Source: a virus (Duplodnaviria > Heunggongvirae > Uroviricota > Caudoviricetes). Taken from it: a stretch of DNA of 11,057 bases. Within the stretch, counting starts at the first letter, position 1. Each line of letters begins with the position of its first letter. This document shows positions 8,159 through 8,303 of this stretch, piece after piece. The DNA is taken from the IMG/VR virus record IMGVR_UViG_2923360383_000006, one strand, 5' to 3'. The position numbers and the translations under genes were made by a program. The notes beneath the pieces were generated by a model that saw nothing but the letters and a program-made list of their open reading frames with translations, made no database searches and was not told the DNA's origin.

Positions 8159-8258
8159 AGCTACCTCGATACTATCGTTATCGTTGGTGGTTAGAAGCCC
8201 GGTTAGTGTTCCCGCACTACCGGGCTTCGCTGTATTTAATGGTTGCGTATTTTTAATG

Positions 8259-8303
8259 CGGTACGTACCATTTAATTTCAGTTTATAACGATGGTACGTA
8301 CCA
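8259..8303. promoter_or_regulatory. Paired palindromic operator candidates in a divergent control region
   Basis: CGGTACGTACCA at 8259-8270 and the perfect 12-bp palindrome TGGTACGTACCA at 8292-8303, centres 33 bp apart. The second abuts the orf60 start codon; both lie in the 146-bp gap between orf60 (plus) and the Icd-like operon (minus). Confidence 0.5.

What the first reader, a model, noticed from the sequence alone, without database searches (positions are those of the whole stretch)
8159..8303. Long leader of the Icd-like operon contains a 10-bp-stem hairpin; possible c4/CI-type immunity RNA
The ~145-nt minus-strand leader includes a perfect stem GAAGCCCGGU/ACCGGGCUUC (plus 8194-8228) with a 15-nt loop. 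In phage P1 the icd gene lies downstream of the c4 antisense RNA, and P4 immunity uses a processed CI RNA in the same kind of leader, so an Icd-like gene behind a structured leader suggests an RNA immunity element. The loop has only a 6-nt complement (UGCGGG/CCCGCA) near the Icd start, so target pairing is unproven.
Basis: inference. Interest (0 to 1): 0.55.

Follow-up and report, generated by a model that had tools for sequence, protein, structure and literature searches.

The report
Antisense small RNA guarding Icd-like gene
The hairpin is real, but it is best read as the terminator of an unannotated ~75-nt antisense RNA on the opposite strand that covers the ribosome-binding site of the first gene of a phage satellite's replication operon, not as a P1 c4 / P4 CI-type immunity RNA.

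Summary
The 10-bp inverted repeat at 8194-8203/8219-8228 is there as described. The window is an E. coli phage-inducible chromosomal island (PICI-type satellite).

The c4/CI reading fails. No C4-family match appears in the window even at permissive thresholds, although the same scan finds true C4 RNAs in two related islands.

The structure is selected on the plus strand, antisense to the Icd-like gene:
- In 97 distinct relatives, 12 of 14 hairpin pairs show compensatory changes.
- There are 165 G·U cells on the plus strand, against 2 that would be G·U on the leader strand.
- All 22 hairpin variants are more stable on the plus strand.
- The hairpin is followed by U-rich tails on the plus strand only.

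A conserved extended -10 (TGgTATGAT, 8143-8151) lies inside Icd-like codons 3-5. T(-12), A(-11) and T(-7) are invariant across nine hexamer variants. It would start a ~73-82-nt two-hairpin RNA at about 8159, complementary to the Shine-Dalgarno sequence and 5' UTR.

The closest known RNA is SymR (34.7 bits, below Rfam's 61-bit cut-off). The design is the same, but membership is not shown.

Expression and function are untested. I found no description of this RNA in Rfam or in the papers searched.

The parts
8143..8151 (+). Predicted extended -10 promoter (TGgTATGAT) of the antisense RNA, embedded in Icd-like codons 3-5
   Evidence: Read from the sequence. Across 37 distinct coding starts the hexamer is TATGAT, TATAAT, TATGCT, TATAGT, TACGAT, TAAGAT, TATTAT, TATATT or TAGTAT, always T-A-n-n-n-T. 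TGn precedes it in 29 of 37. Codon 4 encodes His, Tyr, Arg, Leu, Asn or Thr but always ends in T, which is A(-11). Third-position diversity is 0.019 in codons 2-12 against 0.106 in codons 13-60. Promoter activity was not measured.
8159..8240 (+). Predicted cis-antisense small RNA (about 73-82 nt; 5' end inferred at 8157-8159, 3' end in the U-rich tail)
   Evidence: Covariance model R1 scores 97.4 bits at 8159-8246 on the plus strand. All full-length matches in 96 sources are antisense to the Icd-like gene. The Rfam SymR model aligns full length at 8159-8231 on the plus strand.
8159..8192 (+). 5' stem-loop (helix 1). Contains the anti-Shine-Dalgarno CCUC (8164-8167) and a hypervariable 7-nt loop (8172-8178)
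   Evidence: Fold. 98% of cells are paired. Pair 12-24 switches A-U to U-A in 24 sequences and pair 7-29 switches C-G to A-U in 2. Loop diversity is 0.33, against 0.016 for the stems and linker.
8194..8228 (+).
   Evidence: 12 of 14 pairs show changes on both sides and 96.4% of cells are paired. All 22 variants are more stable on the plus strand, mean -23.4 against -18.0 kcal/mol.
8229..8242 (+). U-rich tail after the hairpin (GCUGUAUUUAAUGG), weak in this copy
   Evidence: In 75 distinct hairpin-plus-tail variants, 61 have at least 5 U in the best 8-nt window, even though this flank is mosaic. The consensus terminator scan did not flag the window copy.
7955..8158 (-). Icd-like gene (67 aa), the predicted target; first gene of the operon that runs to the primase
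   Evidence: NCBIfam NF033153, 69.8 bits. RefSeq annotation. 35% identity over 43 aa to P1 Icd, E = 3e-6.
8159..8276 (-). Predicted 5' UTR of the Icd-like mRNA, with SD GAGG at 8167-8164; fully complementary to the antisense RNA over 8159-~8240
   Evidence: Sequence. The upstream end is inferred from a promoter-like TTGCAT-16 nt-TATAAA found by eye; it was not tested.
8282..8309 (-). Promoter-like site for the Icd-like operon (-35 TTGCAT 8309-8304, -10 TATAAA 8287-8282)
   Evidence: By eye. Not found by the consensus scan. Inference only.
8260..8303 (.). Two operator-like palindromes: GGTACGTACC (8260-8269) and TGGTACGTACCA (8292-8303)
   Evidence: I1. They lie in the mosaic region, which changes together with the divergent small regulator gene.
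8304..8486 (+). YlcI/YnfO-family small protein (DUF3950), downstream of the antisense RNA on the same strand; candidate regulator
   Evidence: Pfam PF13132. NCBIfam NF041551. A gene of this type follows the terminator in nearly all variants.

Best explanation
The hairpin at 8194-8228 is the 3' (terminator) stem-loop of a cis-encoded antisense small RNA made from the plus strand.

Proposed mechanism:
1. A sigma-70 extended -10 promoter inside codons 3-5 of the Icd-like gene starts transcription at about 8159, next to the start codon.
2. The RNA folds into a 5' stem-loop that carries the anti-Shine-Dalgarno sequence, then the GC-rich hairpin with a U-rich tail, and ends after about 73-82 nt.
3. 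The RNA is perfectly complementary to the last ~75 nt of the Icd-like 5' UTR. It pairs with it, probably starting at the two loops, and occludes the ribosome-binding site. The duplex may also be cut.
4. This keeps the Icd-like protein off while the island is quiescent. Through overlapping stop/start codons and polarity it probably also lowers expression of the downstream replication genes (hypothetical, DUF4222, primase).
5. Induction would swamp the RNA with mRNA.

Shown here: the structure, its strand, its conservation, the conserved promoter-like element, and the complementarity. Inferred: transcription, exact ends, repression, and polarity.
For: Strand:
- 165 G.U cells on the plus strand against 2 that would be G.U on the leader strand.
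- 22 of 22 hairpin variants, and 39 of 39 whole 74-nt sequences, are more stable on the plus strand.

Structure:
- 97.1% of cells are paired in 97 distinct sequences.
- 14 of 26 pairs have changes on both sides; 0 of 500 shuffles reach the observed values.
- Slid controls are 31-54% paired (one search gives the same on an alignment not fitted to the structure).

Termination:
- U-rich tails follow the hairpin on the plus strand in 61 of 75 variants, although that flank is mosaic.
- On the leader strand the hairpin is followed by the conserved UCUAACCACCAA.

Promoter:
- T(-12), A(-11) and T(-7) are invariant across nine hexamer variants.
- The third base of codon 4 is always T under six different amino acids.
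- TGn precedes the hexamer in 29 of 37.
- Synonymous-site diversity is about 5-fold lower over codons 2-12.
- These N-terminal ~17 codons lie outside the Icd domain and are absent from P1 Icd.

Module boundary: DNA homology among relatives stops at the outer edge of the hairpin.

Family:
- Model R1 finds one full-length copy per Icd-like start, always antisense. The loci include Klebsiella, Citrobacter and Pantoea, and the prototype PICI EcCICFT073.
- 943 of 5426 complete E. coli genomes match.

Precedent: SymR has the same design. It is a 77-nt RNA opposite the 5' end of symE, its promoter lies in the symE ORF, and it represses translation (PMC1891008). The Rfam SymR model aligns full length at 8159-8231 (34.7 bits, E = 0.0015 for the whole window). 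R1 finds K-12 SymR at its annotated 5' end (18.7 bits).
Against: - There is no expression data of any kind. The promoter, the start site and termination are predictions.
- The consensus scanner called neither a promoter nor a terminator here. The -35 is poor. The window's own U-tail is weak (6 U in 14).
- Helix 1 is nearly invariant, so most of its pairs carry no covariation information.
- The leader sequence is also constrained as an mRNA (SD, start), which could explain part of its conservation.
- Part of the promoter-region conservation could reflect protein constraint or the small GC hairpin in codons 7-11.
- Sequences in the alignment are related, so shuffle controls overstate significance.
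- Toxicity of this Icd-like protein is assumed from a distant relationship to P1 Icd.
Confidence: 0.7

Rival explanations
1. One reading: the hairpin belongs to a c4 / P4 CI-type immunity RNA. This RNA would be processed from the minus-strand leader and act in trans on sites near the Icd-like start.
For: The hairpin also forms on the minus strand in this copy (-24.3 kcal/mol). A 6-nt loop complement exists at 8138-8133. Related islands do carry real C4/IsrK RNAs on the Icd-like strand.
Against: - No C4, c4-a1b1 or isrK hit in the window at any threshold tried, with positive controls in L063 and L092.
- In most variants the minus-strand version has A.C mismatches where the plus strand has G.U.
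- The loop complement is not conserved.
- In relatives the C4 module lies downstream of the Icd-like start, not in the leader.
Confidence: 0.03
2. The hairpin is a cis-acting element of the Icd-like mRNA leader itself, with no antisense RNA involved. It could be an attenuator, an RNase III or RNase E site, a 5' stabiliser, or a target of an antiterminator or AlpA-dependent process.
For: It lies in the predicted 5' UTR. In the window copy the stem is perfect on the minus strand. Compensatory changes alone fit either strand.
Against: - 165 against 2 G.U asymmetry, and 22 of 22 variants weaker on the minus strand (mean -18.0 against -23.4 kcal/mol).
- No U-run follows it on the minus strand.
- It does not explain the conserved -10-like element inside the ORF.
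Confidence: 0.07
3. The plus-strand transcript is not mainly a discrete small RNA. It is an upstream promoter and leader for the divergent YlcI-like regulator gene, like lambda PRE reading antisense through cro into cI. The hairpin would act as an attenuator or 5' stabiliser, and the antisense effect on Icd-like would be a by-product.
For: A small YlcI/YnfO-like gene follows the hairpin on the same strand within about 65-130 nt in nearly all variants. Hairpin variants are co-inherited with that flank. The window's U-tail is weak.
Against: - A stable GC hairpin with a U-rich tail is conserved.
- The module keeps its length and shape next to very different flanks.
- The SymR precedent is a discrete RNA.
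- This model is partly compatible with the best explanation, since read-through can coexist with a terminated RNA.
Confidence: 0.15
4. A DNA-level element: an inverted repeat that serves as a protein-binding site or as a recombination junction between the mosaic regulator module and the conserved Icd-like module.
For: Homology among relatives breaks exactly at the outer edge of the hairpin. Hairpin variants travel with the regulator flank.
Against: The sequence is far too variable for a shared protein site, while pairing is preserved. G.U asymmetry is an RNA signature, not a DNA one. Terminators commonly mark module borders, so the junction is explained anyway.
Confidence: 0.03

Closest known systems
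SymR RNA (Rfam RF01809), cis-antisense regulator of symE in E. coli and Salmonella
   Same: - About 75 nt with two hairpins.
- Encoded opposite the 5' end, including the SD, of its target.
- Promoter embedded in the first codons of the target ORF.
- Expected to block translation (PMC1891008).
- Reciprocal full-length covariance-model alignments with matching 5' ends.
   Different: - Scores 33-36 bits against a 61-bit gathering cut-off. Only variants with the GUGUU..GCAC hairpin hit at all.
- Plain local alignment is not significant.
- The target is an Icd-like protein in a phage satellite, not the AbrB-fold SymE. No LexA context was examined.
- The RNA starts just outside the start codon rather than 3 nt inside the ORF. 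A second variant in L092 and L116 does include the CAU.
- The loops and terminator are hypervariable.
P1/P7 c4 RNA and P4 CI RNA (Rfam C4, RF01695; targets c4-a1b1, RF03163)
   Same: Same logic: an RNA occludes the ribosome-binding site of an icd gene at the head of an operon, so translational repression can silence downstream genes. Some related islands carry true C4/IsrK modules after the Icd-like start (P1 annotation).
   Different: c4 and CI RNAs are made from the same strand as the operon, are processed from the leader, and act through short a/b (seqA/seqC) sites. Here the structure is on the opposite strand, is fully complementary, and has no C4-model similarity.
P1 P53as antisense promoter inside the 5' end of kilA (kilA-repL lytic replicon)
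   Same: An antisense promoter is embedded in the first codons of the first gene of a replication operon, and its transcript covers that gene's 5' region (annotation of AF234172).
   Different: Model R1 found no match at the kilA 5' end. That P53as makes a longer transcript with a different target gene is from my own knowledge; it was not examined further.
Type I toxin-antitoxin and plasmid antisense control RNAs (Sok, CopA, RNA I)
   Same: Short, structured, constitutively made cis-antisense RNAs that hold down a potentially harmful or replication-controlling gene. Variable loops set specificity in those systems (general knowledge).
   Different: Toxicity of this Icd-like protein, loop-loop kissing and specificity groups have not been shown here. 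One of three co-resident pairs had identical RNAs.

Membership tests
C4 antisense RNA family (RF01695; P1/P7 c4, P4 CI) | Covariance-model match at or above the gathering score (45 bits) | tested here: not met
   No hit at gathering threshold, at E<=10 in 7900-8700, or at E<=1 in the whole window. Positive controls: L063 at 72.7 bits and L092 at 76.4 bits.
C4 antisense RNA family (RF01695; P1/P7 c4, P4 CI) | RNA lies on the same strand as the regulated operon, processed from its leader | tested here: not met
   The structure is selected on the opposite strand: 165 against 2 G.U cells, and 22 of 22 variants more stable on the plus strand.
C4 antisense RNA family (RF01695; P1/P7 c4, P4 CI) | Short a/b target sites (c4-a1b1, RF03163) near the regulated RBS | tested here: not met
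   No c4-a1b1 hit in the window. The single 6-nt loop complement is not conserved.
SymR (RF01809) | Covariance-model match at or above the gathering score (61 bits) | tested here: not met
   34.7 bits at 8159-8231 on the plus strand. 33-36 bits in L069 and L092. No hit in the other 11 variant loci scanned.
SymR (RF01809) | About 77-nt two-hairpin RNA encoded opposite the 5' end and SD of its target mRNA | tested here: met
   Predicted RNA 8159-~8240 with two helices, complementary to SD GAGG (8167-8164). Geometry only; the RNA has not been observed.
SymR (RF01809) | Promoter embedded in the target ORF | tested here: inconclusive
   A conserved TGnTAnnnT element sits in codons 3-5, with invariant T(-12), A(-11) and T(-7) and reduced synonymous diversity. 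Activity was not measured, and it was not called by the consensus scan.
SymR (RF01809) | Target is symE (AbrB-fold, SOS-regulated) | tested here: not met
   The target is an Icd-like protein (NF033153).
SymR (RF01809) | Detectable primary-sequence homology to SymR | tested here: not met
   The local alignment score is reached by 31 of 2000 and 167 of 2000 shuffles. The reciprocal CM hit is only 18.7 bits.
Intrinsic (Rho-independent) terminator | GC-rich stem-loop followed directly by a U-tract on the transcribed strand | tested here: inconclusive
   The stem is strong (-25.6 kcal/mol). In the family, 61 of 75 tails have at least 5 U in 8. The window tail GCUGUAUUUAAUGG is weak and was not called.
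Type I toxin-antitoxin system | Small toxic protein whose translation is blocked by a cis-antisense RNA | not testable with these tools
   There is only a distant relation to the P1 cell-division inhibitor Icd (35% over 43 aa). Toxicity and repression need experiments.
Icd-like protein (NCBIfam NF033153) | Profile match above the curated cut-off (25 bits) | tested here: met
   69.8 bits over residues 19-62. BLASTP to P1 Icd gives E = 3e-6.
Gram-negative PICI (EcCICFT073 type) | int, alpA-like HTH, primase and packaging/capsid genes in a ~10-15 kb island at a chromosomal site | tested here: met
   RefSeq annotation of the identical island, which lies between tRNA-Ile and nfeF. EcCICFT073 has the same gene order.

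The most novel reading that the evidence does not exclude
The RNA, together with the divergent YlcI-like gene, could be the missing negative regulator that keeps Gram-negative PICIs quiescent. Its hypervariable loop 1 and terminator hairpin would then define RNA specificity groups, analogous to plasmid incompatibility or satellite-versus-satellite immunity. Each island's antisense RNA would silence its own replication operon, and those of incoming islands of the same type but not of other types.
Probability: 0.15. Interest if true: 0.75.

Novelty: new member of a known kind. Interest (0 to 1): 0.5.

Why it matters
Gram-negative PICIs are widespread satellites, and sequence matching this module occurs in 943 of 5426 complete E. 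coli genomes. Their induction is known to need the activator AlpA. The founding paper states that a global repressor is unclear and that uncontrolled replication harms the host (PMC6092414).

A conserved, unannotated antisense RNA over the ribosome-binding site of the first gene of the replication operon is a concrete candidate for part of that missing negative control. It can be tested directly in the established EcCICFT073 system.

It also gives annotators a new RNA family, shows that many Icd-like ORFs in databases probably have mis-called, over-long starts, and provides an example of a promoter constraining the N-terminal codons of a protein.

Tried and rejected
- Rfam C4/CI membership: rejected, as set out in the membership table.
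- SymR membership:
  - Cross-hits in both directions are below threshold.
  - They appeared in only 2 of the 13 variant loci scanned.
  - Plain alignment is not significant.
  - I therefore kept SymR as 'works like', not 'is a'.
- Consensus promoter/terminator scan: found nothing at the element. The case rests on comparative evidence instead.
I compensated with DNA-pattern scans of viral contigs.
- Literature: searches for Icd-like plus antisense, SymR plus Icd, PICI plus antisense RNA, the phrase 'cell division inhibitor Icd', and the core sequence string all found no description of this RNA. Two PICI papers do not mention antisense or small RNAs.
- P1: model R1 finds nothing at icd. tblastn of the Icd-like protein against 50,697 phage records hit one 16.5-kb 'induced prophage' only.
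- Specificity-group idea: only three co-resident pairs could be identified. Two differ in both loops and one is identical, so this is inconclusive.
- Mutual-information analysis of module linkage: suggestive only, because there are many categories.
- PDB sequence search for the YlcI-like protein: no hits. Its ribbon-helix-helix appearance is by eye only.

Full report
**What the window is.** The window is 100% identical to a chromosomal island of E. coli APEC 16-1068 that lies between tRNA-Ile and nfeF. On the minus strand it carries:
- an integrase (9630-11057) and a hypothetical gene;
- an AlpA-like HTH gene (8627-8824);
- an operon that starts with a 67-aa 'host cell division inhibitor Icd-like' gene (7955-8158);
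- a hypothetical gene, a DUF4222 gene and a primase (5522-7354);
- an SSB gene, a prohead protease/capsid fusion and a DUF1441 gene.

A 60-aa YlcI/YnfO-family gene (8304-8486) lies on the plus strand, divergent from the Icd-like gene. This is the gene order of Gram-negative phage-inducible chromosomal islands. The prototype EcCICFT073 has the same arrangement.

**The observation.** Folding adds a 4-bp inner stem and leaves a 6-nt loop. The 145-nt intergenic interval folds far better than shuffles on either strand (z about -6.3 and -6.6).

**The c4/CI interpretation fails its own test.**
- Rfam finds nothing in the window at gathering thresholds.
- There is no C4, c4-a1b1 or isrK match at E<=10 over 7900-8700 or at E<=1 over the whole window.
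- The scans are sensitive enough. They find genuine C4 RNAs at 72.7 and 76.4 bits, an IsrK at 80 bits, and near-threshold a1b1 sites in two related islands, L063 and L092.
- In those relatives the C4 module lies downstream of the Icd-like start on the Icd-like strand, not in the leader. In L092 it follows directly after the first 18 Icd-like codons.

**Which strand carries the structure.** I collected 80 loci through the Icd-like protein, more than 100 through a conserved 17-mer, 31 through a variant 17-mer, and three species genomes: Klebsiella, Citrobacter and Pantoea.
- DNA similarity to the window ends exactly at the outer edge of the hairpin. Beyond it, the operator and YlcI side is mosaic.
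- The hairpin is present in every locus but its sequence varies greatly, always with compensation.
- On an ordinary MAFFT alignment of 42 distinct sequences, 10 of 14 hairpin pairs change on both sides.
- On a model-guided alignment of 97 distinct sequences, 12 of 14 do. Overall 97.1% of cells are paired, 0 of 500 shuffles reach the observed values, and slid controls give 31-54%.
- The wobble pairs decide the strand. There are 165 G.U cells when the sequences are read on the window's plus strand, against 2 that would be G.U on the leader strand.
- All 22 hairpin variants are more stable on the plus strand (mean -23.4 against -18.0 kcal/mol). So are all 39 whole 74-nt sequences (-35.0 against -23.1).
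- On the plus strand the hairpin is followed by U-rich tails in 61 of 75 variants, even though that flank is otherwise unrelated between variants. On the leader strand it is followed by the conserved UCUAACCACCAA.
- A covariance model built from these sequences finds one full-length copy per Icd-like start, always antisense to it.

**A promoter inside the gene.**
- Immediately upstream on the plus strand, inside Icd-like codons 3-5, lies TGgTATGAT (8143-8151). This is an extended -10 whose spacing puts the start at 8157-8159, where both the Rfam SymR alignment and my model begin.
- Across 37 distinct coding starts the hexamer takes nine forms, all T-A-n-n-n-T.
- Codon 4 encodes His, Tyr, Arg, Leu, Asn or Thr yet always ends in T, which is the A(-11) of the antisense hexamer. 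The C-ending synonym exists for all six amino acids.
- TGn precedes the hexamer in 29 of 37.
- Third-codon-position diversity is 0.019 in codons 2-12 and 0.106 in codons 13-60.
- These N-terminal ~17 codons lie outside the Icd domain and are missing from P1 Icd, which aligns only from residue 18 on.
- All this is comparative evidence for a promoter. The simple consensus scan did not call it, and nothing has been measured.

**The predicted RNA.** From about 8159 the RNA has three parts:
- A 5' stem-loop (8159-8192). Its outer stem contains the anti-Shine-Dalgarno CCUC (8164-8167). Its inner 5-bp stem covaries (CGAUA/UAUCG to CGUUA/UAACG in 24 sequences).
- A one-base linker.
- The terminator hairpin (8194-8228) and its tail.

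The 7-nt loop of the first hairpin (8172-8178) is hypervariable. Its diversity is 0.33, three times that of synonymous sites, and it sits between almost invariant stems (0.016). The RNA is fully complementary to the last ~75 nt of the Icd-like 5' UTR, including SD GAGG.

A second, more divergent form of the module sits opposite an Icd-like paralogue in L092 and L116. There the anti-SD lies in the loop and the start-codon complement lies at RNA positions 4-6.

**How it most likely works.** The design matches SymR/symE. SymR is a 77-nt RNA opposite the 5' end of symE. Its promoter lies in the symE ORF, and it represses translation more than it lowers mRNA level (PMC1891008).

By analogy, the RNA pairs with the Icd-like leader, blocks ribosome binding and perhaps triggers cleavage. 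Leaky transcripts are neutralised while the island is quiescent, and induction out-titrates the RNA.

The Icd-like stop overlaps the next start (7955-7962), and the downstream genes are tightly packed. Loss of Icd-like translation could therefore reduce expression of the primase operon through coupling or polarity. From my own knowledge of P1, c4 control of icd-ant works this way. This last step is inference.

**Comparison with known families.**
- SymR is the nearest known RNA. The Rfam model aligns end to end at 8159-8231 (34.7 bits; E = 0.0015 for the whole window). My model finds K-12 SymR at its annotated first base (18.7 bits).
- However, the score is far below the 61-bit cut-off, most hairpin variants do not hit, and plain alignment is not significant.
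- I therefore say it works like SymR, but I do not file it as a member.
- It is not a C4-family RNA.
- P1's P53as promoter inside kilA is another analogue in design.

**Rivals.**
- A purely cis-acting leader hairpin, or a DNA-level repeat, does not explain the G.U asymmetry or the promoter-like element.
- The most serious rival is that the plus-strand transcript mainly serves as a second promoter and leader for the YlcI-like gene. Such a gene follows the hairpin within about 65-130 nt in nearly all variants, and it is co-inherited with the hairpin variant.
- This rival can coexist with a terminated small RNA.

**Novelty and limits.** No Rfam family reaches threshold. RefSeq annotates no RNA here. 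Five literature searches and two PICI papers gave no description of it. The founding PICI paper says a global repressor in Gram-negative PICIs is unclear. Sequence matching the module occurs in 943 of 5426 complete E. coli genomes and in EcCICFT073 (84 bits). The kind of element is well known, but this family appears undescribed. Everything about expression and function remains to be shown.

Noticed in passing
window 8260-8269 and 8292-8303: Two operator-like palindromes (GGTACGTACC and TGGTACGTACCA). The second abuts the ylcI-like ATG. They bracket a promoter-like TTGCAT-16 nt-TATAAA for the Icd-like operon (8309-8282, minus strand). This region is mosaic between islands and changes together with the small divergent regulator gene.
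   Followed up: partly
window 8304-8486 (+) and equivalents in L002-L237: Nearly every variant has a 57-106-aa YlcI/YnfO-like gene just past the hairpin on the plus (antisense-RNA) strand. By eye these look like ribbon-helix-helix DNA binders. There are no PDB sequence relatives. They are candidates for the unidentified repressor of Gram-negative PICIs.
   Followed up: partly
window 8125-8138 (Icd-like codons 7-11): A small GC hairpin (CCCGC AAGG GCGGG) lies inside the coding sequence, between the positions where a -35 and the -10 of the antisense promoter would lie. Distant variants keep a hairpin here with different codons (for example CCCC GUAA GGGG). Its function is unknown.
   Followed up: no
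L063 2735-2939; L092 9391-9589: Related islands carry genuine C4 RNA (72.7 and 76.4 bits), IsrK (80 bits) and near-threshold c4-a1b1 sites on the Icd-like strand, downstream of the Icd-like start. In L092 they follow directly after the first 18 Icd-like codons. The leader, antisense RNA and first codons therefore behave as a portable cassette.
   Followed up: partly
L092 10471-10558 (+); L116 2323-2410 (-): A second, divergent copy of the antisense module (59 and 42 bits) lies about 750 nt from the first, opposite an Icd-like paralogue. The anti-SD sits in the first loop and the start-codon complement at RNA positions 4-6, as in SymR.
   Followed up: partly
window 7955-8620 (-), 221-aa ORF; database proteins P0001-P0120: The leader is open in frame with the Icd-like gene. 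Mechanical ORF calling therefore extends it to 221 aa here, and many database 'Icd-like' entries are 92-117 aa or longer. These are probably mis-called starts.
   Followed up: no
L050 62-128: An int-alpA RNA motif (RF02996, 55.2 bits) is present in a related island. None was detected in the window at E<=1.
   Followed up: no
L239 7040-7129 (NC_004431.1 1380851-1380762, minus strand): The prototype PICI EcCICFT073 of E. coli CFT073 carries the same antisense module (84 bits) next to its Icd-like gene, so the prediction can be tested in an established experimental system.
   Followed up: yes
L238 11916-11952 (P1, AF234172): The P1 annotation lists an antisense promoter (PaskilA/P53as) and its start site inside the 5' end of kilA, the first gene of the lytic replicon. 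This is the same design principle as proposed here.
   Followed up: no
L060/L076, L087/L053, L107/L112: Among three pairs of islands from the same genome, two differ in both the loop and the terminator hairpin and one pair has identical RNAs. This is too few to test whether the variable loops define specificity groups.
   Followed up: partly
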